This document shows positions 14,948-30,634 of a DNA stretch of 64,000 bases, in pieces. The DNA lies in assembly GCA_965218285.1 (NCBI GenBank), contig OZ244616.1, forward strand, positions 5,635,757-5,699,756. The letters are read 5' to 3'. Positions within the stretch are counted from its first letter, which is position 1; every line of letters begins with the position of its first letter. The DNA comes from Candidatus Poribacteria bacterium. Lineage in GTDB: Bacteria > Poribacteria > WGA-4E > WGA-3G. Both the position numbers and the translations under genes were made by a program. The notes beneath the pieces are model-generated. The model made no database searches. It was not told the DNA's origin and saw only the letters and a program-made list of their open reading frames with translations.

Positions 14948-15976
14948 TTAGGTTGGGGAGGAAAGCCCGCTCCTATAGTTAAAATTCAGACGCGTAAGAA
15001 CTTTGAAATCCTGTCGTTTCGCGCCTGTGGTGATTCGTTTCCCATCCAAACTGTAGATAGAAAACAAACCTTTTGCGTTAATACCTGAAAGTCTTGTTAA
15101 TCCGTGTTTGACATGCTTCACCAAAGTGTTCTTGACCAAGCCTTGTGCTAATATGGTGCCACCATATCGCGAACGAATGCCGTTCTTTTGTGGGTTCTGC
15201 CGATGAAGTTCACGTCTTGAAACAGGTATCGGTGCGATGCAGAATATATCTGTGTTGTCGGGGACATCCACCCCACCGACAGTGTGATATGCCAAACACC
15301 AACTATCTACACAGTGTGCATCAAACGTCTCTGTGAGTTTCTTGAAAGACTTCTTGAGTCCAAGTCTATCTCGAAGTTCTTTCGTCTCCCAACCTTGAAG
15401 TGTGAACAATGTCCATCGCTTTTGTATCTCACTATAGAACCAAGACTTTCCGACTTCAAGAGGACTGAAAGAACTATTCCACTTTTTCGCACGTTTGATA
15501 GTCCTTGCTCTAATATCCTCTACACAGACATGTGTGACAGGATACATATTAGACAACCAATCCAAAATACGCAGTTTCCAATCCCATCTCGCACGCGTGC
15601 CAGCCGGTATCCTTTCTTTATTAGCAGGGTGCCGATTAGTTCGGTTCTTTCGGTTTGGACACGAACGACTCCGACGGGTTCTCCGAAGTTCGCGACGCTT
15701 TTCTATTTTTTTACCCACTTTGCTATGTGCATCAGTTTGAACATTCAAATACGTGTGTGCCTCAGACTTCACCGTGAACCCTTCTTTCTTGCTGCCAGGG
15801 TCTACACCTACAGCAATCTCTTGTTTGTATTCTGTTGTTTCGTAGTTTAATCGAATACAGAAGATACCATTATTCCAATACGGGGTCGCCTTACCACTTT
15901 TGATAAGGTGCCTCGCAACTGGCGGAGAAGTGGGCATCAGTTGTTCACCATCCTTAGATTTCACTGGAACGAACAT
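14948..15976 (-). CDS. isrB: IsrB: RNA-guided RuvC nuclease/nickase of the IscB family lacking the HNH insert (342 aa)
   Basis: N-terminal PLMP domain (KSKDGEQLMPTSPPVARHLIKSGKA). RuvC-I AVGVDPGSKKEGFTV. Arg-rich bridge helix KRRELRRTRRSRS. RuvC-II CVEDIRARTIKRA. RuvC-III DAHCVDSWCLAY. No HNH/Cys4 segment. Size typical of IsrB. Confidence 0.7.
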   Translation of the reverse strand: MFVPVKSKDGEQLMPTSPPVARHLIKSGKATPYWNNGIFCIRLNYETTEYKQEIAVGVDPGSKKEGFTVKSEAHTYLNVQTDAHSKVGKKIEKRRELRRTRRSRSCPNRKNRTNRHPANKERIPAGTRARWDWKLRILDWLSNMYPVTHVCVEDIRARTIKRAKKWNSSFSPLEVGKSWFYSEIQKRWTLFTLQGWETKELRDRLGLKKSFKKLTETFDAHCVDSWCLAYHTVGGVDVPDNTDIFCIAPIPVSRRELHRQNPQKNGIRSRYGGTILAQGLVKNTLVKHVKHGLTRLSGINAKGLFSIYSLDGKRITTGAKRQDFKVLTRLNFNYRSGLSSPT

Positions 15977-16411: not shown

Positions 16412-19400
16412 CTACTGATTTGCTTGGACAATTTCCGCGTGTGTTTTACCGAAATAGGAGGCAACCTGAACGAGGTCAAGGATATTTACCTCACCATCCA
16501 TGTTCACATCGCCAGAAAGTCCTTCGCCAGATTCGCCGAATTGGTTTGCAACCGCAACCAAATCCAAGATATTCACCGTGCCATCTGCATTGAGATCCCA
16601 CGGCACTGGTTCAATCGTAGTATTAGTTGTAAGTTCAGCAGTTTTCGTGCTATCACCTTGCGAAGTTGCCGTAACTTTGGTTTCATATTCACCTGGTTTT
16701 GTGAAGAAATCACCTGCTGCTGTAAATATAACTTCAGCAGAAGCACCGGCAGCAAGCATAATTTCCAACTGACTTGTAGTAGGTTCCTGATCGGCAGATT
16801 CACTGAATGATCCAAGGACGCTACCTTCAATGCCTACTTCAGCAGAAGATCCAAGCACTACCGTATCTTCTGTGTTACCGGTGTTTGTCACTGTGAGGGT
16901 ATAACTGACACCTGCAAGCATATCCATCGTTGCGCCTTTGAGTTCACCTTCACTTTGCAACGTAACGCCGTAAACAGGGAGAATAGTTGTCTTTGTTGAA
17001 ACCTCCGCAGTTTTCGTGCTATCGCCTTGCGAAGTAGCCGTGACTTTGATTTCATATTCACCTGGTTTTGTGAAGAAATCACCTGCTGCTGTAAATATAA
17101 CTTCAGCAGAAGCACCGGCAGCAAGCATAATCTCCAACTGATTTGTAGTAGGTTCCTGATCGTCAGATTGGCTGAATGAACCAAGAACACTCCCTTCAAT
17201 CCCAAACTCTGCAGAAGATCCAAGCACTACCGTATCTTCTGTATTACCGGTGTTTGTCACTGTGAGGGTATAACTGACACCTGCAAGCATATCCATCGTT
17301 GTGCCTGTGAGTTCACCTTCACCTGTCAATGTAACACCATAAACAGGGAGAATAGTCGTGTTCGTTGAAATCACAGCAGTTTTCTTGCTATCACCTTGCG
17401 AAGTTGCTGTAACTTTGATTTCATATTCACCTGGTTTTGTGAAGAAATCACCTGCTGCTGTAAATATAACTTCAGCAGAAGCACCGGCAGCAAGTATAAT
17501 CTCCAACTGACTTGTAGTAGGTTCCTGATCGGCAGATTGGCTGAACGAACCAAGAACACTCCCTTCAATCCCAAACTCTGCAGAAGATCCAAGCACTACC
17601 GTATCTTCTGTATTACCGGTGTTTGTCACTGTGAGGGTATAACTGACACCTGCAAGCATATCCATCGTTGCGCCTTTGAGTTCACCTTCACTTTGCAACG
17701 TAACGCCGTAAACAGGGAAAACAGGGAGAATAGTTGTCTTTGTTGAAACCTCAGCAGTTTTCTCGGTATCGCCTTGCGAAGTAGCCGTAACTTTGATTTC
17801 ATATTCACCTGGTTTTGTGAAGAAATCACCTGCTGCTGTAAATATAACTTCAGCAGAAGCACCGGCAGCAAGCATAATCTCCAACTGATTTGTAGTAGGT
17901 TCCTGATCGGCAGATTCACTGAATGATCCAAGGACGCTACCTCCAATGCCTACTTCAGCAGAAGATCCAAGCACTACCGTATCGTCTGTATTACCGGTGT
18001 TTGTCACTGTGAGGGTATAACTGACACCTGCAAGCATATCCATCGTTGTGCCTTTGAGTTCACCTTCACCTGTCAATGTAACACCGTAAACAGGGAGAAT
18101 AGTCGTGTTTGTTGAAACCTCAGCAGTTTTCGTGCTATCACCTTGCGAAGTTGCCGTAACTTTGGTTTCATATTCACCTGGTTTTGTGAAGAAATCACCT
18201 GCTGCTGTAAATATAACTTCAGCAGAAGCACCGGCAGCAAGCATAATTTCCAACTGACTTGTAGTAGGTTCCTGATCGTCAGATTCACTGAACGAACCGA
18301 GAACACTCCCTCCAATCCCAAACTCTGCAGAAGATCCAAGCACTACCGTATCTTCTGTATTACCGGTGTTTGTCACTGTGAGGGTATAACTGACACCTGC
18401 AAGCATATCCATCGTTGCGCCTTTGAGTTCACCTTCACTTTGCAACGTAACGCCGTAAACAGGAAGAATAGTTGTCTTTGTTGAAATCACAGCAGTTTTC
18501 GTTTTATCGACTTGTGAGGTTGCTGTAACGTTAACTTCGTACTGACCAGCAATCGCAAGGTCATCACCGGAAATCGTTAATATTATTTCTGCTGAAGCCC
18601 CCGCGGCAAGCGATACAACGGTCTGACTTAAGGTAGCAGCATCACCTGACGTTGTTAAATCTATCACGTCATCTGTGTTACTAATATTTGTGATTTTGAG
18701 GGTATAACTGACACCTTCCCTTGCATCAGATGTCTCGGTGGTCAAGACTCCTACGCCAACTAACGTAACACCATGAACAGGAAGAATAGTTGTGGTCGTT
18801 GAGACCGCAGCCGTTTTCGTGTTATCTCCCTGTGAGGTAGCTGTAACTTTGACTTCATAATCCCCTGCAGTTGTAAGCACAGCATCGGAAACAGTCAATG
18901 TCACTTCAGTTGAAGCACCCGCGGCAAGCGAGACAGATGTTTCACTTAAGGTCGCTGTGGCATCGCCTGACGTTGATAAATCTACAACGTCATCTGTGTT
19001 GCCGGTGTTCGCGATGGTGAGCATATAACTGATACCTTCACTTGCATCAGATATTTTAGTAGTCAACTCATCTACACCTGCTAACGTAACACCATAAACA
19101 GGGAGAATAGTTGTGTTCGTTGAAATCACAGCAGTTTTCGTTTTATCGACTTGTGAGGTTGCTGTAATCTTAACTTCGTAGTTGCCTGCTGTCGCAAGGG
19201 CATCACCAGAAAGCGTTATTGTTACTTCCGCAGAAGCACCCGCAGCAAGCGACACAGATGTCTGACTCAAGATAGCAGCATCATCTGATGATGTTAAATC
19301 AATGACGTCATCTGTATTCCCAGTGTTCGTGGCGGTGAGCATATAACTGACGCCTTCACTTGCATCAGTTGTTTCACTGGTCAATTCACCTACGCCTGCT

Positions 19401-22400
19401 AACGTAACACCATAAATCGGGAGAATAGTTGTTTGGGTTGTGACCTCAGCCGTTTTCTCCTCATCCCCTTGTGAGGTTGCTGTAACGTTAACTTCGTAGT
19501 TGCCTGCTGTCGCAAGGGCATCACCAGAAAGCGTTATTGTTACTTCCGTAGAAGCACCTCCGGCAAGCGACACGGATGCCTGACTCAATGTAGCAGCATC
19601 ATTTGATGATGTTAAATCAATGACGTCATCTGTATTCCCCGTGTTCGTGGCGGTGAGCATATAACTGACACCTTCCCTTGCATCAGATGTCTCGGTGGTC
19701 AAGACTCCTATGCCAACTAACGTAACACCATGAACAGGAAGAATAGTTGTGGTCGTTGAGACCGCAGCCGTTTTCGTGTTATCTCCCTGTGAGGTAGCTG
19801 TAACTTTGACTTCATAATCCCCTGCAGTTGTAAGCACAGCATCGGAAACAGTCAATGTCACTTCAGTTGAAGCACCCGCGGCAAGCGAGACAGATGTTTC
19901 ACTTAAGGTCGCTGTGGCATCGCCTGACGTTGATAAATCTACAACGTCATCTGTGTTGCCGGTGTTCGCGATGGTGAGCATATAACTGATACCTTCACTT
20001 GCATCAGATATTTTAGTAGTCAACTCATCTACACCTGCCAACGTAACACCATAAACAGGAAGAATAGTCGTTTGGGTTGTGACCTCAGCAGTTTTCTCCT
20101 CATCCCCTTGTGAGGTTGCTGTAACGTTAACTTCGTAGTTGCCTGCTGTCGCAAGGGCATCACCAGAAAGCGTTATTGTTACTTCCGTAGAAGCACCTCC
20201 GGCAAGCGACACGGATGCCTGACTCAATGTAGCAGCATCATTTGATGATGTTAAATTGATGACGTCATCTGTGTTTCCAGTGTTCGTTATGGTGAGCGTA
20301 TAGGTGACACCTTTACTTGCATCAGATGTTTCGGTCATCAAATCGCCTACACTTGCCAACGTGACACCGTAAACAGGAAGAATAGTCGTGGTTGTTGTAA
20401 CCACAGACGACATCGTGCTATCGCCTTGCGAGGTAGCGGTAACCGTAACTTCGTAGTCCCCCGCTGTCGCGAGGTCATCACCGGAAGTCGTTATCGTTAC
20501 TTCCGCAGAAGCACCTGCAGCAAGCGAGACAGAAGTCTGACTCAATGTAGCAGCATCATTTGATGATGTTAAATTGATGACGTCATCTGTGTTTCCAGTG
20601 TTCGTGGCGGTGAGCATATAACTGATGCCTTCACTTGCATCAGATGTTTTACTGGTCAATTCACCTACGCCTGCTAACGTAACACCGTAAACAGGAAGAA
20701 TCTTCGTGTTCGTTGAGACTTCTGACGACATCGTGTTATCGCCTTGCGAGGTAGCGGTAACCGTAACTTCGTAGTCCCCCGCTGTCGCGAGGTCATCACC
20801 GGAAGTCGTTATCGTTACTTCCGCAGAGGCACCCGCAGCAAGCGACACAGATGTCTGACTCAAGATAGCAGCATCATCTGACGTTGTTAAATCAATGACG
20901 TCATCTGTGTTGCCGGTGTTCGTGGCGGTGAGCATATAACTGATACCTTCACTTGCATCAGATGTTTTAGTAGTCAACTCATCTACACCTGCCAAGGTAA
21001 CGCCATAAACAGGGAGAATAGTCGTGGTCGTTGAGACCTCAGCCGTTTTCTCCTCGTCCCCTTGCGATGTCGCGGTAACCTTGACTTCATAATCGCCCGC
21101 TGTCGCGAGGTCATCACCAGAAATCGTTATTGTCACTTCCGCAGAAGCACCTGCAGCAAGCGACACAGAAGTCTGACTCAATGTAGCAGCATCACCTGAC
21201 GTTGTTAAATCTATCACGTCATCTGTGTTGCCGGTGTTCGTGACGGTAAGCATATAACTGACACCTTCACTTGCATCAGATGTTTCAGTGGTCAACTCAC
21301 CCACACCGGCTAATGTAACGCCGTAAACAGGGAGAATAGTTGTCTTTGTTGAAACCTCCGCAGTTTTCGTGCTATCGCCTTGCGAAGTAGCCGTGACTTT
21401 GATTTCATATTCACCTGGTTTTGTGAAGAAATCACCTGCTGCTGTAAATATAACTTCAGCAGAAGCACCGGCAGCAAGCATAATCTCCAACTGACTTGTA
21501 GTAGGTTCCTGATCGTCAGATTGGCTGAACGAACCAAGAACACTCCCTTCAATCCCAAACCCTGCAGAAGATCCAAGCACTACCGTATCTTCTGTATTAC
21601 CGGTGTTTGTCACTGTGAGGGTATAACTGACACCTGCAAGCATATCCATCGTTGCGCCTTTGAGTTCACCTTCACTTTGCAACGTAACGCCGTAAACAGG
21701 GAGAATAGTTGTCTTTGTTGAAACCTCCGCAGTTTTCGTGCTATCGCCTTGCGAAGTAGCCGTGACTTTGATTTCATATTCACCTGGTTTTGTGAAGAAA
21801 TCACCTGCTGCTGTAAATATAACTTCAGCAGAAGCACCGGCAGCAAGCATAATCTCCAACTGACTTGTAGTAGGTTCCTGATCGTCAGATTGGCTGAACG
21901 AACCGAGAACACTCCCTTCAATCCCAAACTCAGCAGAAGATCCAAGCACTACCGTATCTTCTGTATTACCGGTGTTTGTCACTGTGAGGGTATAACTGAC
22001 ACCTGCAAGCATATCCATCGTTGCGCCTTTGAGTTCACCTTCACTTTGCAACGTAACGCCATAAACAGGGAGAATAGTTGTGTTCGTTGAAATCACAGCA
22101 GTTTTCGTTTTATCGACTTGCGAGGTTGCTGTAATCTTAACTTCGTAGTCACCTGCTGTCGCAAGGGCATCACCGGAAGTCGTTATCGTTACTTCCGCAG
22201 AAGCACCTGCAGCAAGCGAGACAGAAGTCTGACTCAATGTAGCAGCATCATTTGATGATGTTAAATTGATGACGTCATCTGTGTTTCCAGTGTTCGTTAT
22301 GGTGAGCGTATAGGTGACACCTTCACTTGCATCAGATGTTTCGGTCATCAAATCGCCTATACTTGCCAACGTGACACCGTAAACAGGAAGAATAGTCGTG

Positions 22401-25378
22401 GTTGTTGTAACCACAGACGACATCGTGCTATCGCCTTGCGAGGTAGCGGTAACCGTAACTTCGTAGTCCCCCGCTGTCGCGAGGTCATCACCGGAAGTCG
22501 TTATCGTTACTTCCGCAGAGGCACCCGCAGCAAGCGACACAGATGTCTGACTCAAGATAGCAGCATCATCTGACGTTGTTAAATCTATCACGTCATCTGT
22601 GTTGCCGGTGTTCGTGACGGTAAGCATATAACTGACACCTTCACTTGCATCAGATGTTTCAGTGGTCAACTCACCCACACCGGCTAATGTAACGCCGTAA
22701 ACAGGGAGAATAGTTGTCTTTGTTGAAACCTCCGCAGTTTTCGTGCTATCGCCTTGCGAAGTAGCCGTGACTTTGATTTCATATTCACCTGGTTTTGTGA
22801 AGAAATCACCTGCTGCTGTAAATATAACTTCAGCAGAAGCACCGGCAGCAAGCATAATCTCCAACTGACTTGTAGTAGGTTCCTGATCGTCAGATTGGCT
22901 GAACGAACCAAGAACACTCCCTTCAATCCCAAACCCTGCAGAAGATCCAAGCACTACCGTATCTTCTGTATTACCGGTGTTTGTCACTGTGAGGGTATAA
23001 CTGACACCTGCAAGCATATCCATCGTTGCGCCTTTGAGTTCACCTTCACTTTGCAACGTAACGCCGTAAACAGGAAGAATAGTTGTCTTTGTTGAAACCT
23101 CAGCAGTTTTCTCGGTATCGCCTTGCGAAGTAGCCGTGACTTTGATTTCATATTCACCTGGTTTTGTGAAGAAATCACCTGCTGCTGTAAATATAACTTC
23201 AGCAGAAGCACCGGCAGCAAGCATAATTTCCAACTGACTTGTAGTAGGTTCCTGATCGTCAGATTGGCTGAACGAACCGAGAACACTCCCTTCAATCCCA
23301 AACTCAGCAGAAGATCCAAGCACTACCGTATCTTCTGTATTACCGGTGTTTGTCACTGTGAGGGTATAACTGACACCTGCAAGCATATCCATCGTTGCGC
23401 CTTTGAGTTCACCTTCACTTTGCAACGTAACGCCGTAAACAGGGAGAATAGTTGTCTTTGTTGAAACCTCCGCAGTTTTCGTGCTATCGCCTTGCGAAGT
23501 AGCCGTGACTTTGATTTCATATTCACCTGGTTTTGTGAAGAAATCACCTGCTGCTGTAAATATAACTTCAGCAGAAGCACCGGCAGCAAGCATAATTTCC
23601 AACTGACTTGTAGTAGGTTCCTGATCGTCAGATTGGCTGAACGAACCGAGAACACTCCCTTCAATCCCAAACCCTGTAGAAGATCCAAGCACTACCGTAT
23701 CTTCTGTATTACCGGTGTTTGTCACTGTGAGGGTATAACTGACACCTGCAAGCATATCCATCGTTGCGCCTTTGAGTTCACCTTCACTTTGCAACGTAAC
23801 GCCGTAAACAGGGAGAATAGTTGTCTTTGTTGAAACCTCCGCAGTTTTCTCGGTATCGCCTTGCGAGGTTGCTGTGACTTTGATTTCATATTCACCTGGT
23901 TTTGTGAAGAAATCACCTGCTGCTGTAAATATAACTTCAGCAGAAGCACCGGCAGCAAGCATAATCTCCAACTGACTTGTAGTAGGTTCCTGATCGTCAG
24001 ATTGGCTGAACGAACCGAGAACACTCCCTTCAATCCCAAACCCTGTAGAAGATCCAAGCACTACCGTATCGTCTGTATTACCGGTGTTTGTCACTGTGAG
24101 GGTATAACTGACACCTGCAAGCATATCCATCGTTGCGCCTTTGAGTTCACCTTCACTTTGCAACGTAACGCCGTAAACAGGGAGAATAGTCGTTGTGGTC
24201 GTGATTTCAGCGGTCTTTGCGTTATCGCCTTGCGAGGTTGCTGTGACTTTTGCCGCATAATCACCAGCAGTGGCAAGCGAAGAACCGGGGATCGTCAATA
24301 CGACATTCTCTGAAGCACCTGCAGCGAGCGGGACAGAAGTTTTGTTTAATGTAGCTTTAGCGATGCCCGATACTGCTAAACTTATCTTATCGCTTGTATT
24401 CCCGGTGTTTGTGACTCGGAGGGTATACTTCATTCCACCACTTGCATCTGTCGTTTCGGTTGTCAAGTCACTTACCCCTGTTAACGTAACCTCATAAACA
24501 GGAGGAACAGTCGTTGTGGTCGTAACTTCTGCAGTTTTCGTGCTATCTCCCTGGGAGGTTGCCTTAACCTTGACTTCATAATCGCCTGCTGTTGTCAAAA
24601 CATTACCGGAAACGGTCAATGTTACGTTCCTTGCAGCACCTGCATCAAGCGGGACAGTGGTTGGACTTAGGGTAGCAGAAGCATCGCCTGAAGTACTCAA
24701 ATTTATCGTATCGTTTGTATTACCGGTATTTGTGACCTTGAGTGTATATGTGACTGCAGCACTTGCATCTGTTGTTTGGGTTGTCAAAGAGCCTACGCCG
24801 GCTAACATAACACCGTAAACAGGAACTTCTGATGTGTTACTTTGGGTATAGATGTAATCACCCGATGTGCGAAAATCGCCATTTGCAGCGTTTCCTGTAG
24901 CATAAAACGTAATAGGTCCCACATCATTAGTAGGGGCAGTCCATTTAAACGTCCACTGGTTTTTGTCTCTTGTTCCGCTTGCACTTCCTTGAGTAGTCTG
25001 CTTAATATATTGTTTACTGTTTGCTGCTGTAACCTGTGTATTCCCATTATTCGCTGGAGTAAAGGTGCCAGCACGTGCGCCATTGCCGTTCAGCGCGGTC
25101 ATCTCAAATCCCCATCGACTTTGCCCGGAACGTGATAAATCAACAACAATATCATACATCTCACCCGGCAAATAGGTTCTAGGGACTCCTAACATCAGTG
25201 AACCACCTGCAGCGTTCAGATCGTTGCCGACGTGGCAGTTTTTACAGGTGCCTTCACCGGGAGCTTCAGTTAGTCCATCTGGTGGACCACTAGAAAAAGC
25301 AAATACACTGCTGTTGCTTGCAGCAAAAAAGAACACCATTACACTGCAAATAGAAAAGATTTTTTTCAGATAATTCAA
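16412..25378 (-). CDS. giant secreted repeat protein (2988 aa). Signal peptide, then an N-terminal about 170-aa domain with a CxxCH motif (PSCyt1-like). Then about 25 tandem CARDB/DUF11-like Ig-fold repeats of two subtypes (about 100 and 115 aa). C-terminal type-I dockerin.
   Basis: SP MNYLKKIFSICSVMVFFFAASNSSVFA. Motif GTCKNCHVG....GGSLML. Repeat consensus PVYGVTL..G.L....SDAS.GVSYTLTVTNTGNTDD...L.....A.LS..SVSLAAGAS.EVT.T.SGD.L.TAG.YEV.VTATSQ. C-terminal DLNADGTVNILDLVAVANQFG ... DVNMDGEVNILDLVQVASYFG (duplicated calcium-binding dockerin segments). Confidence 0.8.
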   Translation of the reverse strand: MNYLKKIFSICSVMVFFFAASNSSVFAFSSGPPDGLTEAPGEGTCKNCHVGNDLNAAGGSLMLGVPRTYLPGEMYDIVVDLSRSGQSRWGFEMTALNGNGARAGTFTPANNGNTQVTAANSKQYIKQTTQGSASGTRDKNQWTFKWTAPTNDVGPITFYATGNAANGDFRTSGDYIYTQSNTSEVPVYGVMLAGVGSLTTQTTDASAAVTYTLKVTNTGNTNDTINLSTSGDASATLSPTTVPLDAGAARNVTLTVSGNVLTTAGDYEVKVKATSQGDSTKTAEVTTTTTVPPVYEVTLTGVSDLTTETTDASGGMKYTLRVTNTGNTSDKISLAVSGIAKATLNKTSVPLAAGASENVVLTIPGSSLATAGDYAAKVTATSQGDNAKTAEITTTTTILPVYGVTLQSEGELKGATMDMLAGVSYTLTVTNTGNTDDTVVLGSSTGFGIEGSVLGSFSQSDDQEPTTSQLEIMLAAGASAEVIFTAAGDFFTKPGEYEIKVTATSQGDTEKTAEVSTKTTILPVYGVTLQSEGELKGATMDMLAGVSYTLTVTNTGNTEDTVVLGSSTGFGIEGSVLGSFSQSDDQEPTTSQLEIMLAAGASAEVIFTAAGDFFTKPGEYEIKVTATSQGDSTKTAEVSTKTTILPVYGVTLQSEGELKGATMDMLAGVSYTLTVTNTGNTEDTVVLGSSAEFGIEGSVLGSFSQSDDQEPTTSQLEIMLAAGASAEVIFTAAGDFFTKPGEYEIKVTATSQGDTEKTAEVSTKTTILPVYGVTLQSEGELKGATMDMLAGVSYTLTVTNTGNTEDTVVLGSSAGFGIEGSVLGSFSQSDDQEPTTSQLEIMLAAGASAEVIFTAAGDFFTKPGEYEIKVTATSQGDSTKTAEVSTKTTILPVYGVTLAGVGELTTETSDASEGVSYMLTVTNTGNTDDVIDLTTSDDAAILSQTSVSLAAGASAEVTITTSGDDLATAGDYEVTVTATSQGDSTMSSVVTTTTTILPVYGVTLASIGDLMTETSDASEGVTYTLTITNTGNTDDVINLTSSNDAATLSQTSVSLAAGASAEVTITTSGDALATAGDYEVKITATSQVDKTKTAVISTNTTILPVYGVTLQSEGELKGATMDMLAGVSYTLTVTNTGNTEDTVVLGSSAEFGIEGSVLGSFSQSDDQEPTTSQLEIMLAAGASAEVIFTAAGDFFTKPGEYEIKVTATSQGDSTKTAEVSTKTTILPVYGVTLQSEGELKGATMDMLAGVSYTLTVTNTGNTEDTVVLGSSAGFGIEGSVLGSFSQSDDQEPTTSQLEIMLAAGASAEVIFTAAGDFFTKPGEYEIKVTATSQGDSTKTAEVSTKTTILPVYGVTLAGVGELTTETSDASEGVSYMLTVTNTGNTDDVIDLTTSGDAATLSQTSVSLAAGASAEVTITISGDDLATAGDYEVKVTATSQGDEEKTAEVSTTTTILPVYGVTLAGVDELTTKTSDASEGISYMLTATNTGNTDDVIDLTTSDDAAILSQTSVSLAAGASAEVTITTSGDDLATAGDYEVTVTATSQGDNTMSSEVSTNTKILPVYGVTLAGVGELTSKTSDASEGISYMLTATNTGNTDDVINLTSSNDAATLSQTSVSLAAGASAEVTITTSGDDLATAGDYEVTVTATSQGDSTMSSVVTTTTTILPVYGVTLASVGDLMTETSDASKGVTYTLTITNTGNTDDVINLTSSNDAATLSQASVSLAGGASTEVTITLSGDALATAGNYEVNVTATSQGDEEKTAEVTTQTTILPVYGVTLAGVDELTTKISDASEGISYMLTIANTGNTDDVVDLSTSGDATATLSETSVSLAAGASTEVTLTVSDAVLTTAGDYEVKVTATSQGDNTKTAAVSTTTTILPVHGVTLVGIGVLTTETSDAREGVSYMLTATNTGNTDDVIDLTSSNDAATLSQASVSLAGGASTEVTITLSGDALATAGNYEVNVTATSQGDEEKTAEVTTQTTILPIYGVTLAGVGELTSETTDASEGVSYMLTATNTGNTDDVIDLTSSDDAAILSQTSVSLAAGASAEVTITLSGDALATAGNYEVKITATSQVDKTKTAVISTNTTILPVYGVTLAGVDELTTKISDASEGISYMLTIANTGNTDDVVDLSTSGDATATLSETSVSLAAGASTEVTLTVSDAVLTTAGDYEVKVTATSQGDNTKTAAVSTTTTILPVHGVTLVGVGVLTTETSDAREGVSYTLKITNISNTDDVIDLTTSGDAATLSQTVVSLAAGASAEIILTISGDDLAIAGQYEVNVTATSQVDKTKTAVISTKTTILPVYGVTLQSEGELKGATMDMLAGVSYTLTVTNTGNTEDTVVLGSSAEFGIGGSVLGSFSESDDQEPTTSQLEIMLAAGASAEVIFTAAGDFFTKPGEYETKVTATSQGDSTKTAEVSTNTTILPVYGVTLTGEGELKGTTMDMLAGVSYTLTVTNTGNTDDTVVLGSSAEVGIGGSVLGSFSESADQEPTTNQLEIMLAAGASAEVIFTAAGDFFTKPGEYEIKVTATSQGDTEKTAEVSTKTTILPVFPVYGVTLQSEGELKGATMDMLAGVSYTLTVTNTGNTEDTVVLGSSAEFGIEGSVLGSFSQSADQEPTTSQLEIILAAGASAEVIFTAAGDFFTKPGEYEIKVTATSQGDSKKTAVISTNTTILPVYGVTLTGEGELTGTTMDMLAGVSYTLTVTNTGNTEDTVVLGSSAEFGIEGSVLGSFSQSDDQEPTTNQLEIMLAAGASAEVIFTAAGDFFTKPGEYEIKVTATSQGDSTKTAEVSTKTTILPVYGVTLQSEGELKGATMDMLAGVSYTLTVTNTGNTEDTVVLGSSAEVGIEGSVLGSFSESADQEPTTSQLEIMLAAGASAEVIFTAAGDFFTKPGEYETKVTATSQGDSTKTAELTTNTTIEPVPWDLNADGTVNILDLVAVANQFGESGEGLSGDVNMDGEVNILDLVQVASYFGKTHAEIVQANQ
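16860..24230. repeat. intragenic tandem repeats, about 300-345 nt units, many copies more than 95% identical at nucleotide level (e.g. 21310-21576 equals 22684-22950)
   Basis: Identical antisense ORF artefacts recur every about 340/370 nt in the ORF track. Direct sequence comparison confirms this. Confidence 0.85.
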
Positions 25379-25496
25379 AACGTCTCCTTATGCATGTACG
25401 CGAAAAAACGCCCCACCGCCGACGCCAATTGGGTTGATTCGCAATCGGAAAACCAGCAGTCGGGGCGTTTTTGTTAAAACGTCTAAGTCACTAAAC

Positions 25497-28205
25497 TTAT
25501 TTTAGGATGACCATTCGACGGGTAGCAGAGAAATACTGAGTTTGGAGGGCATAGAAATAGATGCCGCTCGAAACATGTTCACCTGCTGTATTTTTACCAT
25601 CCCAATAAGCAGCACTGGAGTTTGTCGTGTATGCGCCAGTTGACTTATGACCGAGATTTAGCGTCCGAACCGAATGACCGGAAACATCAAAAATCTGAAT
25701 CGTTACGTTGGAACCGCGATTCAGTTGATAAGGTATCCAAGTCTCAGGGTTGAACGGGTTCGGGAAGTTTTGTCCTAGCATGGTTTCTTTAGGACGCACA
25801 TCGCCAACACGCATCTGGACACTCATAAATGCATTGTGAATATCCGTAGTTTGGACTGTGCGTTGGAACGGACCGGACACAATAGTGCCACGTTCGTCAA
25901 GAAGTGCGATCTCAACTTTATCACCGGCTTCGACAACACTCTTATGATTTAGGTCTGCCCATACAGCAGAGACGTATCCATCTTCGCTTGAAACTTTCTC
26001 GGTTGTCGTAACGCCTGTGCGGATGTTTTTGGCAACCATGGTGTAAGACGCACCAGTCTCTTTATTCTGTAAGTCGCTGGCAACTATAAACGCCCAAGCA
26101 CTCTTAGTTGCAGAGATCTTAGGTGCTGCAGCTGCGCTTTCCGTAGGCATTTCAGCCGGTTCGTTTGACCACGCAGTACCAGAAAACGTTACCGTTCCAC
26201 CTGCAGGTGTATTGACAATATATCCCTTTCCACCTTCAATACCAAAATTGTAGCCACCTTCAATACCAGCAACATAACCAACGAAACTCTGCGTTGCTGC
26301 ATTTAACTTGATGACAACTGTCGAACCTAACATATCGGCAAGAGATTGTGCAGTGTAAGGTTCTGCAGGCATTAACGGAACAGAAATCATGTTCAATCCC
26401 GCTTCAAGTGTGACATCATAGGTAGGTAGCGGTGGTGGTGGTTCTACTGGCACTACTTCCGGTGCTGGGACATAAGGTGCGATCATCAGCATTGCTGTCG
26501 GTTCTGTCCAAGCAAAAGATGCAGCAACATCACCAACACCTTGGATACCAGCGTGATGTGTAATTACGCCACCTTCTGTGGGAACACGTGCATTGCTACC
26601 CATCGGGTCTTCATCCGCAGGTAAACCGACTGGACCGGGAATATCAGTCCCGCGCTCGGTATTCTGTTCACTACCTGCGTCGTAAGATCTGAGTTCCAAA
26701 GTCGTTGAAATCGGCATACCTGCTTCATCAAAGAGTGCTAAGTCTGTAGTCCCGATGAATGCATCATTTGTTGAGACCAACATTGTCGCAAGAGAAAGCG
26801 CAGAGTTCATCGCATCTGCTGTTAACATAACCGTGACTGAAGCACCGGGTAAGACCATGCCTTCTCCGACAGTACTGTTTGCGCCTGCAGCTACTGTGAG
26901 TGCGGCGAGCCCTGAGACATCTCCACCTTCAGCAAGCGCGACAAGAGCAGCATTAGCGGGTTGACCGACTTCGTAGAGCTTGATACCTGCAGCATGCGTT
27001 GCAAAGATTGGTGGTGAGAAGATTTGTCCACCCATTCCCGGTTCACCTGTGGTGAGGTTGGTCAGGGTAATACTGAATATTTGTGGTTCGGGAACAACGG
27101 GTTCAGGCACTACGACATCATCCACTGGAGGTGTATCATCTGCCGGAGGCGTATCATCTGCCGGAGGTGTGTCATCCGCAGGTGGCGTGTCATCTGCTGG
27201 AGGCGTATCATCCGCAGGTGGCGTGTCATCTGCCGGAGGTGTGTCATCCGCAGGTGGTGTGTCATCTGCCGGAGGTGTGTCATCCGCAGGTGGTGTGTCA
27301 TCTGCTGGAGGCGTATCATCCGCAGGTGGTGTGTCATCCGCAGGAGGCGTATCATCCGCAGGTGGCGTGTCATCTGCCGGAGGCGTATCATCCGCAGGTG
27401 GCGTGTCATCCGCAGGTGGCGTGTCATCTGCTGGAGGCGTATCATCCGCAGGTGGTGTGTCATCTGCCGGAGGCGTATCATCCGCAGGTGGCGTGTCATC
27501 TGCCGGTGGTGTGTCATCCGCAGGTGGTGTGTCATCTGCCGGAGGTGTGTCATCCGCAGGTGGTGTGTCATCTGCCGGTGGTGTGTCATCCGCAGGTGGT
27601 GTGTCATCTGCCGGAGGTGTGTCATCCGCAGGTGGTGTGTCATCTGCCGGAGGCGTATCATCCGCAGGTGGTGTGTCATCTGCCGGAGGTGTGTCATCTG
27701 CCGGAGGCGTATCATCCGCAGTGGGAACAGTAACCGATCCATCTGCAGTTGTACTTTCCAAAGCACTTCCGCCGGCACCGGAGATAAGTACATCTGTCAA
27801 GGTAATAGCGGACGCTTTTACCTCAACGACTTCAAACGTTACCGTAGCGAGAGTGTGATCACCATCCGGTGCATTACCGAATGCGTAAAATTCAACTTTA
27901 TTCTCAGATATAGTAACAGGGTCAACACCGGGAAGTGCAGGCTTAGGAAGATACTCTCCATAAGCAATAGAAACATAACTGAGAGCAGTTGAATCAAAAT
28001 TTACATCAACTTCGTAGCCTGCGACACCTGCGCCACCCGCGATATTAATATTCACGGTGAGTTGTTCCCCGACTGCCGGGGATTCAATCGTAGCGGGATC
28101 AACAGAAACGGTGGCTGCACCGTAACTCATCGCTGTCCATCCCAATAACATTACAACAGCCATTAAGGAAAATAGTATATTCCTATTGAAAAGCTGGTTT
28201 TTCAT
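25497..28205 (-). CDS. secreted modular surface protein: signal peptide, cohesin-like domain, (DDTPPA)x35 linker, Spondin_N-like domain, beta-sandwich region, T9SS C-terminal sorting domain (Por_Secre_tail)
   Basis: SP MKNQLFNRNILFSLMAVVMLLGWTAMSYGAA. Cohesin-like ..GYEVDVNFDSTALSYVSIAYGEYLP...ENKVEFYAFGN...TLATVTFEVVEVKA. Spondin_N-like FSITLTN.T..Q.FSPP..ATH..G..LYE.GQPA..AL..LAEGG...L...TND.F.G. C-terminal FPNPFNP.T.I.Y.L......IQIFD..G..V..L....WDG.N..GE.VSSGIYFY. Confidence 0.7.
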   Translation of the reverse strand: MKNQLFNRNILFSLMAVVMLLGWTAMSYGAATVSVDPATIESPAVGEQLTVNINIAGGAGVAGYEVDVNFDSTALSYVSIAYGEYLPKPALPGVDPVTISENKVEFYAFGNAPDGDHTLATVTFEVVEVKASAITLTDVLISGAGGSALESTTADGSVTVPTADDTPPADDTPPADDTPPADDTPPADDTPPADDTPPADDTPPADDTPPADDTPPADDTPPADDTPPADDTPPADDTPPADDTPPADDTPPADDTPPADDTPPADDTPPADDTPPADDTPPADDTPPADDTPPADDTPPADDTPPADDTPPADDTPPADDTPPADDTPPADDTPPADDTPPADDTPPADDTPPADDTPPVDDVVVPEPVVPEPQIFSITLTNLTTGEPGMGGQIFSPPIFATHAAGIKLYEVGQPANAALVALAEGGDVSGLAALTVAAGANSTVGEGMVLPGASVTVMLTADAMNSALSLATMLVSTNDAFIGTTDLALFDEAGMPISTTLELRSYDAGSEQNTERGTDIPGPVGLPADEDPMGSNARVPTEGGVITHHAGIQGVGDVAASFAWTEPTAMLMIAPYVPAPEVVPVEPPPPLPTYDVTLEAGLNMISVPLMPAEPYTAQSLADMLGSTVVIKLNAATQSFVGYVAGIEGGYNFGIEGGKGYIVNTPAGGTVTFSGTAWSNEPAEMPTESAAAAPKISATKSAWAFIVASDLQNKETGASYTMVAKNIRTGVTTTEKVSSEDGYVSAVWADLNHKSVVEAGDKVEIALLDERGTIVSGPFQRTVQTTDIHNAFMSVQMRVGDVRPKETMLGQNFPNPFNPETWIPYQLNRGSNVTIQIFDVSGHSVRTLNLGHKSTGAYTTNSSAAYWDGKNTAGEHVSSGIYFYALQTQYFSATRRMVILK
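27122..27720 (-). repeat. 18-bp tandem repeat x about 34 (encodes DDTPPA hexapeptide linker)
   Basis: ggaggcgtatcatctgcc / ggtggtgtgtcatccgca periodicity read directly. Only synonymous third-position variation. Confidence 0.85.
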
Positions 28206-28519
28206 AAAACACTCCTTAACTAAATTTATTTACATTGTAACTTTTCTCTACCTTTCGGTACAGGTTTGATTTTCTCGTTTGAGGGGGAGTTCACCGGAAA
28301 CCTACGGGGCACCATTCGCTTCAACTTGCCACTACTATAAAAACAAAGGCGAATCGCTCAAACGTAACTTTTCACTTAACTGATAAGTTTATTCTAACGT
28401 AAAAACGTTGTTAAGTCAAATTAGATTTCAAATAGATAGAACATTTTTTGATAAGTTAGGATACTCTAATTTCAATTATACTACAAATTACAAAAATAAA
28501 GCAAATTAAAATAACCCTA

Positions 28520-28747
28520 TTAGGTTACACGAAGCGCAAGTTGATTCCAAATATCACCTAATTTTGAAATGGCTTTGTAAACGGGATAAATTGCCTCCCA
28601 CATCGCCTTGCGAGCTGCAGTAGCAGTCTGCTCATCACCCTTGGCAACAGCAGTTCTGAGTTGATGTCCCATCTCCTCTTGAACCGCTGCACACGTTTGT
28701 GTGAGTTCTGCAAGTCGTTGTGCTGCATGTATTTGACGTGTTACCAA
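28520..28747 (-). CDS. small hypothetical ORF (75 aa), low support
   Basis: ORF only. Lies at the edge of a 1.4-kb AT-rich noncoding region. Confidence 0.15.
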   Translation of the reverse strand: MVTRQIHAAQRLAELTQTCAAVQEEMGHQLRTAVAKGDEQTATAARKAMWEAIYPVYKAISKLGDIWNQLALRVT

Positions 28748-29246
28748 TTCCGCTGATATTTCTCAAAATCGCCAGGAACCCACTAACTATCAAGGCTAAA
28801 AGAGTATAACAACATGAAAATGCGCTTTGTCTTGGACAGTTTTGCTTGATTTTTGCGTATTCATGACCACTCTAATTGACAATACAGTGTTATTAGGATT
28901 GAAAATCAGGAGAAAATCTAAAATCATATCCGATTTTCAGAAAGCATTTTCATGACATCAATTCAAGAGAACCCTTGTCTATATTGACATCTAAGCCACT
29001 TGAGAAATGTAAGTTAATTATAAGTTAAAACTAATTTAATATAAAATTAATTTTTATTTGTCTTTATATTAATAAAGAGGACTCCATAACGGAACATATC
29101 AGTTTGTCTATGTTGTACATATTTACCAACACCTATTCTATGTGCGTCCAAGGTTTTGGTTCGCTACTCCGACACTTGAAGTTTCATATTGAACGGATAT
29201 TAGTTTAACATTAAACTTAATTTTAAGCAAATTATTTTTTTATCTA

Positions 29247-29478
29247 TATATCCTACACTCCGCACTTCTGATTTCCGATTTTCGGTATTTATTTCTCAAA
29301 CCTGCGTGGTCCCTACATTGAGTAAGCAATTTCAGGTGAACCGGAAAAAAGACAAGTGGAAAATAGAATCTTAATTCACAACTCCAAATCTCCCCTACCC
29401 TGTGCGAATCCTTTCGTGACGCGGGTTTGTCGTAAAAATACCAAAATGTGTCAAAACAAGTGCGGAGTGTAGGATATA
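29247..29478. mobile_element. 232-bp MITE-like element with perfect 21-bp terminal inverted repeats (atatcctacactccgcactt)
   Basis: 29247-29267 is the exact reverse complement of 29458-29478. AT-rich interior. No ORF. Confidence 0.45.
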
Positions 29479-29644
29479 CATTCATAATATGTCTTAAATT
29501 GCGTTCTCCAAATTGCTTTTAAGTTAATATGCCATTTTTTTGAAAAAATGTCAAGCAAATAGTTTTGATGTCCAGGGTTATTTAGTTTTAAGAATTATCA
29601 GTTGATGAGTGTTACTGATAGTTTATTTCGTAGGTCGGGTAGAG

Positions 29645-29884: not shown

Positions 29885-29939
29885 CAGGTGTGTTCATATA
29901 TTAATTTTGGCTATATATTATTAACGTGTGTGACAAAAT

Positions 29940-30608: not shown

Positions 30609-30634
30609 TAGAATATGATATAATTACCACTAAA

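What the first reader, a model, noticed from the sequence alone, without database searches (positions are those of the whole stretch)
16412..28205. Adjacent cohesin-bearing T9SS-sorted scaffold and dockerin-terminated 2988-aa adhesin: a candidate non-cellulosomal cohesin-dockerin surface complex
Two co-directional genes appear to form one operon. The upstream product is a secreted protein with an N-terminal cohesin-like domain, a flexible (DDTPPA)x35 stalk, a Spondin_N-like domain and a Por/T9SS C-terminal sorting domain. The 117-bp intergenic gap carries no obvious terminator.

The downstream product is a Sec-signal-bearing 2988-aa protein made of about 25 CARDB/DUF11-like Ig repeats. It ends with a textbook type-I dockerin and has no T9SS sorting domain of its own.

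In established cellulosome biology, a dockerin binds a cohesin on a cell-anchored scaffoldin. Here the 'scaffoldin' would be anchored by T9SS/LPS attachment rather than by an SLH domain or sortase, and the cargo is a giant adhesin rather than a glycoside hydrolase. I do not recall this combination (cohesin plus T9SS sorting domain, dockerin on a CARDB-repeat giant) being described.
Basis: partly seen in the sequence, partly recalled or inferred. Interest (0 to 1): 0.8.

Follow-up and report, generated by a model that had tools for sequence, protein, structure and literature searches.

The report
Cohesin-dockerin surface tether in Poribacteria
Two neighbouring genes of a sponge-symbiont bacterium (Poribacteria) encode a surface anchor protein with a cohesin "socket" and a long stalked protein ending in a dockerin "plug"; the pair is kept together across the phylum, which suggests a cellulosome-type connector reused to display a probable haem-binding head on the cell surface, although the binding itself is untested.

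Summary
Both genes are real, on the minus strand. Gene A (28205..25497, 902 aa) has a signal peptide, Cohesin, an acidic Pro-rich stalk, Spondin_N, an unassigned middle region and a T9SS type-A tail. Gene B (25378..16412, 2988 aa) has a signal peptide, a Reeler-like head, 24 Ig-like repeats and a two-loop dockerin, with no T9SS tail.

- The stalk has 32+1 repeats, not 35.
- The repeats do not score as CARDB.
- The head was missed.
- The 118-nt gap does carry a terminator-like hairpin, found in 68/68 related loci.

The organism is Candidatus Poribacteria. The A-then-B order recurs in about 65 of 84 related loci. B orthologues range from 271 to 2978 aa, so head plus dockerin is the conserved core and the Ig repeats are a spacer. 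In other phyla the same head ends directly in a T9SS tail, so the dockerin stands where an anchor signal normally stands.

No complex model could be run and co-variation tests were inconclusive. A T9SS-anchored cohesin scaffoldin was already inferred for Cloacimonadota in 2021.

The head has an invariant C-X(2-4)-C-H motif, and its best fold match is cytochrome f. It is probably a haem domain, not an adhesin.

Verdict: new variant of a known kind.

The parts
25497..28205 (-). Gene A, 902 aa: the T9SS-sorted, single-cohesin anchoring protein
   Evidence: ORF; translation; domains; orthologues in 80+ Poribacteria loci.
28119..28205 (-). Sec signal peptide of A (aa 1-29, MKNQLFNR...SYG|AAT)
   Evidence: Read from the sequence. 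The N-terminus is conserved in homologues. The cleavage site is inferred.
27726..28097 (-). Cohesin domain (aa 37-160)
   Evidence: PF00963 at 44.5 bits against a cut-off of 24.1. AF2 pLDDT 83.7, with cohesins as the top Foldseek hits (2xdh TMt 0.76; type I cohesins).
27123..27716 (-). Acidic Pro-rich stalk: 32 x DDTPPA plus 1 x DDTPPV (aa 164-361)
   Evidence: Repeat count. The 18-bp DNA repeat is reported by TRF as periods 36 and 108. Stalk length varies from 15 to 503 aa among orthologues.
26493..27077 (-). Spondin_N (FS) domain (aa 377-571)
   Evidence: NF038123 at 128.5 bits (cut-off 40); PF06468 at 30.6 bits (cut-off 24).
25776..26483 (-). Middle region of A (aa 575-810), conserved but unassigned
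   Evidence: No Pfam family at E <= 0.01. My own HMM finds it in 83 loci.
25506..25766 (-). T9SS type-A C-terminal sorting domain (aa 814-900; begins NFPNPFNPET)
   Evidence: TIGR04183 at 30.3 bits (cut-off 23). PF18962 at 25.6 bits, just under its cut-off of 27. FlgD_ig at 32.6 bits (cut-off 27).
25400..25476 (-). Conserved branched hairpin followed by U6 in the A-B gap (terminator- or attenuator-like)
   Evidence: Fold of -41.5 kcal/mol, z -2.9. Present in 68/68 loci. Occurs once per locus, so it is not a generic repeat. 79% column identity and 97.6% of cells paired. No Rfam match.
25384..25388 (-). AGGAG ribosome-binding site, 5 nt before B's TTG start
   Evidence: Sequence. Orthologues have ATG or TTG at the same place.
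16412..25378 (-). Gene B, 2988 aa: stalked, dockerin-terminated protein
   Evidence: ORF; translation; domains. Head and dockerin lie in one uninterrupted ORF in 64 of 71 loci.
24824..25300 (-). Head domain (aa 27-185): choice-of-anchor V / Reeler-like beta-sandwich
25232..25246 (-). CKNCH motif (aa 45-49), a candidate haem c attachment site
   Evidence: C, C and H are invariant in 57 homologues from several lineages, with 2-4 residues between the cysteines.
16619..24820 (-). 24 Ig-like repeats (123-aa and 106/107-aa types), a variable-length spacer
   Evidence: TRF periods of 369 and 318 bp; unit boundaries; choice-of-anchor T, FixG_C and DUF11-type scores. Absent or few in 38 of 65 orthologues.
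16451..16597 (-). Dockerin (aa 2928-2976) with two Ca-binding loops, DLNADGTVNILD and DVNMDGEVNILD
   Evidence: PF00404 at 30.1 bits (cut-off 22.9). PDB relative 2y3n_B, E 1.7e-8. The two halves are 15/21 identical. Consensus over 61 orthologues.
28391..28419 (-). Best sigma-70-like promoter match upstream of A (TTGACT-17-TAGAAT)
   Evidence: 10 of 12 matches. This is a consensus match only; the total count of such sites is no higher than in shuffles.

Best explanation
The window comes from a Candidatus Poribacteria genome (sponge symbionts).

Gene A is exported by Sec. Its type-A C-terminal domain then takes it across the outer membrane through a type IX secretion pathway and leaves it fixed to the cell surface. 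Its N-terminal cohesin is held away from the cell by an acidic, proline-rich stalk.

Gene B ends in a canonical two-loop, internally symmetric dockerin. This dockerin binds A's cohesin in a calcium-dependent way, so B hangs from A.

The conserved parts of B are its N-terminal head and its dockerin. The 24 Ig-like repeats are a spacer of evolvable length that pushes the head far from the cell, on the order of 100 nm or more. The head is a Reeler-family beta-sandwich with an invariant C-X(2-4)-C-H. It most likely carries a covalently bound haem, arranged as in cytochrome f. The payload is therefore more probably a surface-displayed redox or haem domain than an adhesin.

A conserved hairpin plus U-run between the genes probably lets only part of the transcripts continue into B, or stabilises the A message.

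Shown: the domains, the gene order, conservation across the phylum, replacement of the anchor by a dockerin, and the fold similarities.
Inferred: cohesin-dockerin binding, surface location, haem attachment, and the role of the hairpin.
For: Domains:
- All the key domains score above curated cut-offs.
- The cohesin model matches only cohesins at the top of the PDB search.
- The dockerin is related to a cellulosomal dockerin.

Taxon:
- All 80 best genome loci are Poribacteria MAGs, out of 216 relatives found.

Conserved pairing:
- Cohesin-spondin-tail gene followed 120-180 nt later by head...dockerin on the same strand. 71 loci have the head, and in 64 of them head and dockerin share one ORF.
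- B length ranges from 271 to 2978 aa while head and dockerin persist.
- In L003 two different dockerin proteins follow the cohesin gene: one with a YWTD propeller, fn3 and LTD, and one with the head.

Anchor substitution:
- Outside Poribacteria the head occurs as a protein of about 280 aa ending in a T9SS tail, as a stand-alone gene.

Independent lineage:
- In L086 a head+dockerin gene lies 2.6 kb from a Cohesin+T9SS-tail giant.

Uniqueness in the window:
- Within the 64-kb window there is only one cohesin and one dockerin.

T9SS context in the window:
- A PorV/PorQ-family protein (E 3e-21) and an M6 protease with a T9SS tail.

Spacer lengths:
- Stalk length in A and length of B correlate, rho 0.41, n 61.

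Head:
- Invariant C-X(2-4)-C-H.
- A predicted mature N-terminus A|Y/F lies 17-18 residues before the first Cys.
- In L086 the head gene sits in a cluster with a CytoC_RC-like dihaem protein and other CxxCH proteins.
Against: - No direct or modelled evidence of binding exists.
- The mirror-tree and column-association tests show no cohesin-specific signal beyond shared ancestry.
- Poribacteria dockerins are very alike, and many other cohesin and dockerin proteins exist in these genomes. The pairing may therefore not be exclusive.
- B has no known signal for crossing the outer membrane, so how it reaches A on the surface is unexplained.
- The PorV-like protein is below its curated cut-off (76 against 90 bits), and no core T9SS component was seen.
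- PF18962 scores just below its cut-off for A's tail.
- For the haem reading: no cytochrome family scores in Pfam. The nearest sequence relative, F-spondin reelin-N, is not known to me as a haem protein. Copper-binding YcnI is also among the fold matches.
Confidence: 0.65

Rival explanations
1. A is a general docking post. Its cohesin accepts many of the near-identical Poribacteria dockerins (on WD40, LRR, YWTD-propeller, ConA-like and other proteins). B is only the partner that happens to be encoded next door. The system is a promiscuous surface network, not a dedicated pair.
For: - Dockerins of unrelated Poribacteria proteins share the VNILDLV.VA..FG pattern of B.
- Those other dockerin proteins are diverse.
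- Many multi-cohesin and cohesin+dockerin+tail proteins exist in the same clade.
- In L003 a different dockerin protein is inserted next to the cohesin gene.
- No cohesin-specific co-variation with the dockerin was found.
Against: The strict A-then-B adjacency, with a conserved junction element, across about 65 loci argues for a privileged relationship.
Confidence: 0.2
2. The two genes are neighbours but their products do not touch. B's dockerin binds a cohesin encoded elsewhere, for example one of the multi-cohesin T9SS scaffoldins, or it serves only as a calcium-binding stabilising module. A's cohesin serves another partner.
For: - Other cohesin proteins exist in the same genomes: OZ246958.1 and CBDBMC010000001.1 each gave two loci, and there are multi-cohesin proteins.
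- A terminator-like hairpin separates the genes.
- No interaction evidence exists.
Against: - The neighbourhood is conserved over a phylum while both spacers change length.
- The dockerin stands exactly where other phyla have the T9SS tail.
- Cohesin+tail and head+dockerin genes co-occur again in an independent lineage.
Confidence: 0.1
3. It is a cellulosome-like polysaccharide-degrading complex, as proposed for other uncultured phyla.
For: Cohesin and dockerin are the defining cellulosome modules. A similar inference was made for Cloacimonadota (PMC8542988).
Against: - A has a single cohesin and no carbohydrate-binding module.
- B has no glycoside hydrolase or other catalytic CAZyme domain.
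- The neighbours are oxidoreductases, MacB and a cupin.
Confidence: 0.02

Closest known systems
Cell-anchoring scaffoldins of clostridial cellulosomes (cohesin plus SLH or sortase anchor, e.g. C. thermocellum OlpA/OlpB/SdbA). This comparison rests on my own knowledge plus the PDB hits 3ul4, 4dh2 and 1ohz.
   Same: A secreted, cell-attached protein presents a cohesin that captures a protein ending in a duplicated calcium-binding dockerin. Cohesin fold and dockerin sequence pattern are the same.
   Different: Here the anchor is a T9SS type-A C-terminal domain on a diderm cell instead of SLH or sortase on a monoderm. There is one cohesin, no CBM and no enzymes. The cargo is a stalked non-catalytic protein, and it must also cross an outer membrane.
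Predicted T9SS-anchored scaffoldin system of Ca. Stygibacter (Cloacimonadota), Williams et al. 2021 (PMC8542988)
   Same: A cohesin-bearing protein with a T9SS C-terminal domain is inferred to hold dockerin proteins on a diderm surface. One non-enzymatic dockerin protein (halomucin-like) is mentioned.
   Different: That system has a 3755-aa multi-cohesin/CBM scaffoldin and mostly hydrolase cargo. It was read as a degradative complex, and no conserved two-gene module was reported. Here there is one cohesin, a dedicated neighbouring cargo, a different phylum, and conservation across the phylum.
Non-cellulosomal cohesin-dockerin modules (the survey of Peer et al. 2009, cited in PMC8542988; the Archaeoglobus fulgidus cohesin 2xdh is the best fold match)
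   Same: Single cohesins and dockerins in organisms that do not degrade cellulose.
   Different: In most of those cases the partners and roles are unknown. Here a specific partner is indicated by conserved adjacency and by anchor substitution.
Choice-of-anchor V proteins with a T9SS tail in other phyla (Eisenbacteria, WOR-3 and unnamed metagenome bacteria)
   Same: The same head domain with the invariant Cys/Cys/His motif, 38-48% identical.
   Different: Those proteins are about 280 aa, end directly in a T9SS tail and stand alone. In Poribacteria the tail is replaced by a dockerin, often with Ig spacers, and the gene follows a cohesin-tail gene.
Animal F-spondin (reelin-N + FS/spondin domain + TSRs; PDB 3coo, 2zou)
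   Same: B's head is a sequence and fold relative of the reelin-N domain, and A carries the FS (Spondin_N) domain. These are the two N-terminal domains of F-spondin.
   Different: Here they lie on two chains that would be joined non-covalently. The bacterial head has an extra N-terminal C-X(2-4)-C-H segment. There are no TSRs. Outside Poribacteria the head gene has no spondin neighbour, so the pairing may be a coincidence of this lineage.
Cytochrome f (PDB 4ogq_C, 2jxm_B)
   Different: No significant sequence similarity. The head has no membrane anchor and no small domain, and is predicted to be extracellular.

Membership tests
Cohesin (PF00963) | Profile score above the gathering threshold | tested here: met
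   44.5 bits against 24.1, aa 37-160, covering 5-139 of 139 profile positions.
Cohesin (PF00963) | Nine-stranded beta-sandwich (jelly-roll) fold | tested here: met
   AF2 pLDDT 83.7, all-beta. The top 50 Foldseek PDB hits are cohesins, TMt up to 0.76.
Cohesin (PF00963) | Binds a dockerin | not testable with these tools
Only comparative evidence is available.
Dockerin type I (PF00404) | Profile score above the gathering threshold | tested here: met
   30.1 bits against 22.9. PDB relative 2y3n_B, E 1.7e-8.
Dockerin type I (PF00404) | Two duplicated segments, each with a 12-residue calcium loop (DxNxDGxxxxxD) followed by a helix | tested here: met
   DLNADGTVNILD-LVAVANQFG and DVNMDGEVNILD-LVQVASYFG, 15/21 identical.
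Dockerin type I (PF00404) | Calcium-dependent binding to a cognate cohesin | not testable with these tools
   Needs ITC or pull-down with and without EDTA, or a multimer model.
T9SS type-A sorting domain (TIGR04183 / PF18962) | Profile score above the curated cut-off, located at the extreme C-terminus | tested here: met
   TIGR04183 at 30.3 bits against 23, aa 814-900 of 902. PF18962 is just below its cut-off, 25.6 against 27.
T9SS type-A sorting domain (TIGR04183 / PF18962) | The genome encodes the T9SS machinery (SprA/Sov, PorU, PorV, GldKLMN) | tested here: inconclusive
   The window has only a PorV/PorQ-family protein, at 76.2 bits (cut-off 90), E 3e-21, and a second tail-bearing protein. 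The rest of the genome is not available.
Cellulosome | Scaffoldin with several cohesins and a carbohydrate-binding module, plus dockerin-bearing glycoside hydrolases | tested here: not met
   A has one cohesin and no CBM; B has no catalytic domain.
Spondin_N / spondin domain (PF06468, NF038123) | Profile score above the cut-off | tested here: met
   NF038123 at 128.5 bits against 40; PF06468 at 30.6 against 24.
Reeler / choice-of-anchor V (PF02014, NF041895) | Profile score above the cut-off, and fold like reelin-N | tested here: met
   [not shown]
c-type cytochrome | CXnCH haem-attachment motif, conserved | tested here: met
   All 57 homologues have C-X(2-4)-C-H: 43 CX2CH, 2 CX3CH and 12 CX4CH.
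c-type cytochrome | Covalently bound haem | not testable with these tools
   Needs a haem stain, haemochrome spectrum or a structure.
c-type cytochrome | Match to a known cytochrome sequence family | tested here: not met
   No cytochrome family in Pfam or NCBIfam. Only fold similarity to cytochrome f.
   Not among the 19 Pfam families at E <= 0.1. The repeats score as FixG_C (189.6 bits), choice-of-anchor T (202.6 bits) and the DUF11 repeat TIGR01451 (77.1 bits).
Intrinsic (Rho-independent) terminator | G+C-rich hairpin immediately followed by a U-run | tested here: met
   GGGGCG stem end plus U6; present in 68/68 loci. Termination activity was not tested, and the hairpin is unusually long and branched.

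The most novel reading that the evidence does not exclude
Poribacteria use cohesin-dockerin pairing as a secretion hitch. B has only a Sec signal and no T9SS tail. It would bind A's cohesin in the periplasm and be carried through the T9SS translocon by A's C-terminal domain. A non-covalent cargo would thus be exported and anchored in one step. The same logic would run a phylum-wide display network for eukaryote-like domains (WD40, LRR, cadherin, YWTD propellers). In this locus it would place a cytochrome-f-like haem domain at the tip of a fibril more than 100 nm long, facing the sponge host matrix.
Probability: 0.12. Interest if true: 0.85.

Novelty: new variant of a known kind. Interest (0 to 1): 0.62.

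Why it matters
Cohesin-dockerin pairs are understood almost only as cellulosome glue in Gram-positive bacteria. The many non-cellulosomal copies in genomes mostly lack known partners.

This locus offers a clean, testable pair in a diderm phylum:
- A single cohesin on a T9SS-sorted anchor.
- A dedicated dockerin cargo next door.
- Natural length variants, with B from about 270 to about 3000 aa.
- Relatives in which the dockerin is replaced by a direct T9SS tail.

It also raises a concrete question that nobody has answered: how does a dockerin protein without an export signal cross the outer membrane?

For sponge symbiosis, it points to how Poribacteria may mount their eukaryote-like proteins on the cell surface. 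It also points to an unrecognised family of probable extracellular haem proteins built on the Reeler fold.

Tried and rejected
No interface prediction was possible.
2. Mirror-tree test on 61 paired loci. The partial correlation between cohesin and dockerin was 0.22, no better than dockerin against the tail or the middle region. Inconclusive.
3. Association of dockerin loop position 11 (L/Q/R) with cohesin columns. The top associations are spread over all domains, so they reflect ancestry only.
5. The homologue search with the dockerin returned almost only short fragments, which were useless for cataloguing cargo.
6. An exact look-up of protein A found nothing on record. Close homologues are split into short ORFs because long-read assemblies frameshift in the stalk repeat.
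7. I checked whether a spondin gene accompanies the head gene in other phyla. It did not in the two contexts read, so the 'split F-spondin' idea is not general.
8. Rfam and tRNA scans found nothing in the gap or in the rest of the window.
9. Literature: no open-access paper links Poribacteria or sponge symbionts with cohesin or dockerin, or Reeler with CXXCH. Peer et al. 2009 is not held.
10. The cellulosome reading was rejected on domain content.
Full report
**1. What is in the sequence**

The stated coordinates hold two ORFs on the minus strand: 28205..25497 (902 aa, ATG) and 25378..16412 (2988 aa, TTG) (translations).

Gene A scores as follows:
- Cohesin at aa 37-160 (44.5 bits, cut-off 24.1).
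- Spondin_N (PF06468 30.6 bits against 24; NCBIfam NF038123 128.5 bits against 40).
- T9SS type-A sorting domain at the very C-terminus (TIGR04183 30.3 bits against 23). PF18962 is just short, at 25.6 against 27.
- Between cohesin and spondin lie 32 exact DDTPPA units plus one DDTPPV, not 35.
- A 236-aa stretch before the tail matches no family.

Gene B scores as follows:
- It ends in a Dockerin_1 domain (30.1 bits against 22.9) with two calcium loops. The two halves are 15/21 identical.
- Its best solved relative is a cellulosomal dockerin (2y3n_B, E 1.7e-8).
- It has no T9SS tail.
- Its body is 24 Ig-like units of 123 aa or 106-107 aa (DNA periods 369 and 318 bp). They score as FixG_C, choice-of-anchor T and DUF11-type repeats, not as CARDB.

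An AlphaFold model of the cohesin (pLDDT 83.7) finds only cohesins at the top of the PDB. The first is the non-cellulosomal cohesin of Archaeoglobus fulgidus.

**2. The gap between the genes**

The gap is 118 nt. An AGGAG lies 5 nt before B's TTG, and orthologues carry ATG or TTG at the same place.

The whole gap folds at -41.5 kcal/mol, z -2.9. The consensus scan missed it because that scan allows loops of only 3-8 nt.

- A hairpin plus T-run is present in the same gap in 68 of 68 related loci.
- The motif occurs once in the 64-kb window and once per locus in 61 loci, so it is not a generic terminator or a dispersed repeat.
- Forty-five distinct copies align with 79% column identity, including the loop stretches. 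97.6% of cells are paired, against at most 58% when the partners are slid. Only one compensatory pair is seen, because the sequence hardly varies.
- Rfam has no match.
- In most loci only about 20 nt separate the U-run from the ribosome-binding site. B is therefore probably transcribed by read-through. I read the element as an attenuator or message-stabilising hairpin that sets the A:B ratio, but this is inference.

**3. Where it comes from and how conserved it is**

A profile of the cohesin domain found 216 relatives in the species-representative genome set. All 80 loci kept are Candidatus Poribacteria MAGs, many of them complete chromosomes of 5-6.7 Mb.

Close homologues in metagenome protein sets look like short cohesin-only proteins of about 200 aa. 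That is an artefact: long-read assemblies frameshift inside the acidic repeat (tails such as EETPT turning into LLRKLL), which splits the gene.

I built HMMs from the window's domains and searched six-frame translations of all loci.
- The order cohesin - spondin - middle region - tail, then 120-180 nt, then head ... dockerin on the same strand, recurs in about 65 loci.
- 71 loci have the head, and in 64 of them head and dockerin lie in one uninterrupted ORF.
- The distance from head to dockerin falls into classes of 271-478 aa (38 loci) and 1016-2978 aa (27 loci). The window's gene is the longest.
- The conserved core of B is therefore head plus dockerin, and the Ig repeats are an expandable spacer.
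- The length of A's stalk and the length of B correlate weakly (Spearman 0.41, n 61, not corrected for ancestry).

**4. Evidence that the two proteins work together**

- (a) Adjacency is conserved over a phylum while both spacers change.
- (b) In L003 the cohesin gene is followed by two dockerin genes: a 616-aa YWTD-propeller/fn3/LTD protein and a 365-aa head+dockerin protein. The cargo can change but the dockerin stays.
- (c) Outside Poribacteria (Eisenbacteria, WOR-3 and unnamed metagenome bacteria; 38-48% identity) the same head occurs in proteins of about 280 aa that end directly in a T9SS tail and stand alone. In Poribacteria the dockerin thus occupies the place of a surface-anchoring signal. 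This fits the logic behind the NCBIfam 'choice-of-anchor' names.
- (d) In another lineage (L086/L087) a 246-aa head+dockerin gene lies 2.6 kb from a gene of more than 1796 aa with Cleaved_Adhesin, Cohesin (36 bits) and a T9SS tail.
- (e) In L075 and L077 a different 430-aa dockerin protein is encoded immediately upstream of a 511-aa cohesin+tail gene.
- (f) In the 64-kb window these are the only cohesin and the only dockerin.

Against this, several points remain open.
- Distance-matrix and column-association tests gave no signal beyond shared ancestry.
- Poribacteria dockerins are very similar to each other, so binding may be promiscuous.

**5. The wider system**

A profile search of 1.84 billion representative proteins gave 7933 cohesin relatives, 469 of them at E <= 1e-30. 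Of the 145 best, 57 end in a T9SS-type tail by my HMM, and many carry 2-6 cohesins, with or without a dockerin.

Pfam confirms several examples:
- WD40 propeller + 5 cohesins. The T9SS-type tail of this one (P0236) was seen only by my own HMM; it is not among the 25 Pfam families shown.
- 3 cohesins + dockerin + tail.
- Cohesin + YWTD propeller + tail.
- Beta-helix + cohesin + dockerin + cadherin + LRR + tail.

One of these proteins (P0243) sits on a contig of 5,654,351 bp, the same length as the Poribacteria chromosome OZ242029.1. Other loci show WD40+dockerin+tail, LRR+dockerin+tail and ConA-like+dockerin proteins.

So cohesin plus T9SS tail is common in this clade. The window's pair is the most conserved module of a large cohesin/dockerin/T9SS network that also carries the 'eukaryote-like' domains for which sponge symbionts are known. 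The window itself adds a PorV/PorQ-family outer-membrane protein (E 3e-21, below the curated cut-off) and an M6 protease with a T9SS tail.

**6. What the cargo is**

The head model is confident (pLDDT 91.7).
- By profile-sequence search its nearest solved relative is the reelin-N domain of F-spondin (E 2e-5).
- All 57 homologues aligned, from several lineages, keep Cys, Cys and His as C-X(2-4)-C-H: 43 CX2CH, 2 CX3CH and 12 CX4CH.
- Most have a predicted signal-peptidase site A|Y/F 17-18 residues before the first Cys.
- To my own knowledge, in cytochrome f the haem is bound at C21-x-x-C24-H25 and the alpha-amino group of mature residue Tyr1 is the sixth ligand.
- In L086 the head gene is followed by a DUF2231 membrane protein, two proteins with CxxCH-like motifs and a dihaem CytoC_RC-like protein.

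I therefore think the head is a mono-haem c domain (about 0.5-0.6 confidence). 'Adhesin' is then not the best description of B.

The counter-arguments are these: no cytochrome family matches by sequence, reelin-N is not known to me as a haem protein, and a copper site as in YcnI (also among the fold matches) or a disulfide is possible.

One curiosity: A carries the FS (Spondin_N) domain and B the reelin-N-like domain. These are the two N-terminal domains of animal F-spondin, here on two chains that would be joined by cohesin-dockerin. This neighbourhood is not seen for the head outside Poribacteria, so I give it little weight.

**7. Mechanism proposed**

- A is exported by Sec and then by a type IX pathway, and is fixed to the outer membrane through its processed C-terminus. 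This is by analogy with Bacteroidota and is inferred.
- Its cohesin sits on a roughly 200-aa acidic Pro-rich stalk.
- B's dockerin binds it with calcium.
- The 24 Ig-like units project the head. At about 4 nm per Ig-like domain and about 0.3 nm per stalk residue, the tip could lie more than 100 nm from the membrane (inference).
- The unsolved step is how B crosses the outer membrane. It could use a type II system and then be captured outside, or it could bind A in the periplasm and be co-exported through the T9SS. The second would be new biology.

**8. Comparison with what is known, and verdict**

The modules are bona fide cohesin and dockerin, but the system fails the definition of a cellulosome: one cohesin, no CBM, no enzymes.

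A T9SS-tailed cohesin scaffoldin with dockerin partners, including one non-enzymatic one, was already inferred from MAGs of Ca. Stygibacter, Cloacimonadota (PMC8542988). Non-cellulosomal cohesins and dockerins have been catalogued since 2009. I found no open-access paper that connects Poribacteria or sponge symbionts with cohesin or dockerin, but the library is incomplete.

The new elements are:
- the dedicated two-gene module conserved across the phylum;
- the evidence that a dockerin replaced a T9SS tail on the same head domain;
- the spacer-length variation;
- the conserved junction RNA element;
- the cytochrome-f-like head.

I rate it a new variant of a known kind, interest about 0.6.

Noticed in passing
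window 25400-25476 (- strand); same position in L001-L076: A 65-75-nt branched hairpin plus U-run between genes A and B. It is conserved in sequence (79% column identity, 35 invariant columns) across Poribacteria and occurs once per locus. No Rfam family matches. It may be an attenuator or another cis-regulatory RNA specific to this gene pair.
   Followed up: yes
[not shown]
   Followed up: partly
window 28206-31050: A low-GC (0.38), ORF-poor stretch upstream of gene A. Only the C-terminal third of a cupin gene survives here (28565-28753, - strand, 86% identical to L002). That cupin gene sits intact upstream of the cohesin gene in 57 related loci. A TnpB zinc-ribbon remnant lies at 30244-30474 (+). 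This looks like a decayed insertion that truncated the cupin gene.
   Followed up: partly
window 6964-8055 and 8356-8967 (- strand): A TnpB/OrfB_IS605 (Cas12f1-like TNB) ORF and a separate HTH_OrfB_IS605 fragment: IS605-family elements in the window.
   Followed up: no
window 14948-15976 (- strand): An RRXRR-family protein gene lies directly downstream of gene B. It is not at that position in L002 or L003, where an unassigned gene or a GFO_IDH_MocA gene follows. It is probably a mobile insertion.
   Followed up: no
window 47222-48412 (+) and 58386-60686 (+): A PorV/PorQ-family outer-membrane protein (NF033709 76 bits, below the cut-off of 90) and an M6-type metalloprotease ending in a T9SS-type tail. 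These are hints of a T9SS-like pathway in this genome.
   Followed up: partly
L019:1048-3603, L019:4443-8852, L081:140-2062, L079:12777-16925, L003:12328-14286; proteins P0236-P0303: Poribacteria encode many proteins that combine eukaryote-like domains (WD40, LRR, cadherin, YWTD/LDL-receptor propellers, fn3) or an M36 peptidase with dockerins, one to six cohesins and T9SS tails. Some have dockerin and tail, or dockerin, cohesin and tail, in one chain. That would allow chains or lattices on the cell surface.
   Followed up: partly
L086:3586-12326 (= L087): In another lineage a 246-aa head+dockerin gene is followed by DUF2231, two CxxCH-like proteins and a dihaem CytoC_RC-like protein. It faces a Cleaved_Adhesin+Cohesin+T9SS-tail gene of more than 1796 aa.
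   Followed up: partly
P0001-P0043; L001:5901-9395, L002:10001-13556: In public long-read metagenome assemblies the orthologues of gene A are split into 2-3 called genes, because of frameshifts in the acidic repeat stalk. Databases therefore show them as short 'cohesin-only' proteins.
   Followed up: yes
window 26493-27077 (gene A) and 24824-25300 (gene B): Spondin_N and a reelin-N-like domain, the two N-terminal domains of animal F-spondin, are encoded on the two neighbouring genes. In two other-phylum contexts the head gene has no spondin neighbour.
   Followed up: partly
window 36779-38962 (-), 53331-54749 (+), 60728-62659 (-): A 727-aa WD40 propeller protein, a beta/gamma-crystallin-domain protein and a DUF6785/DUF6784 protein. 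DUF6785 also follows the cohesin gene in L004.
   Followed up: no
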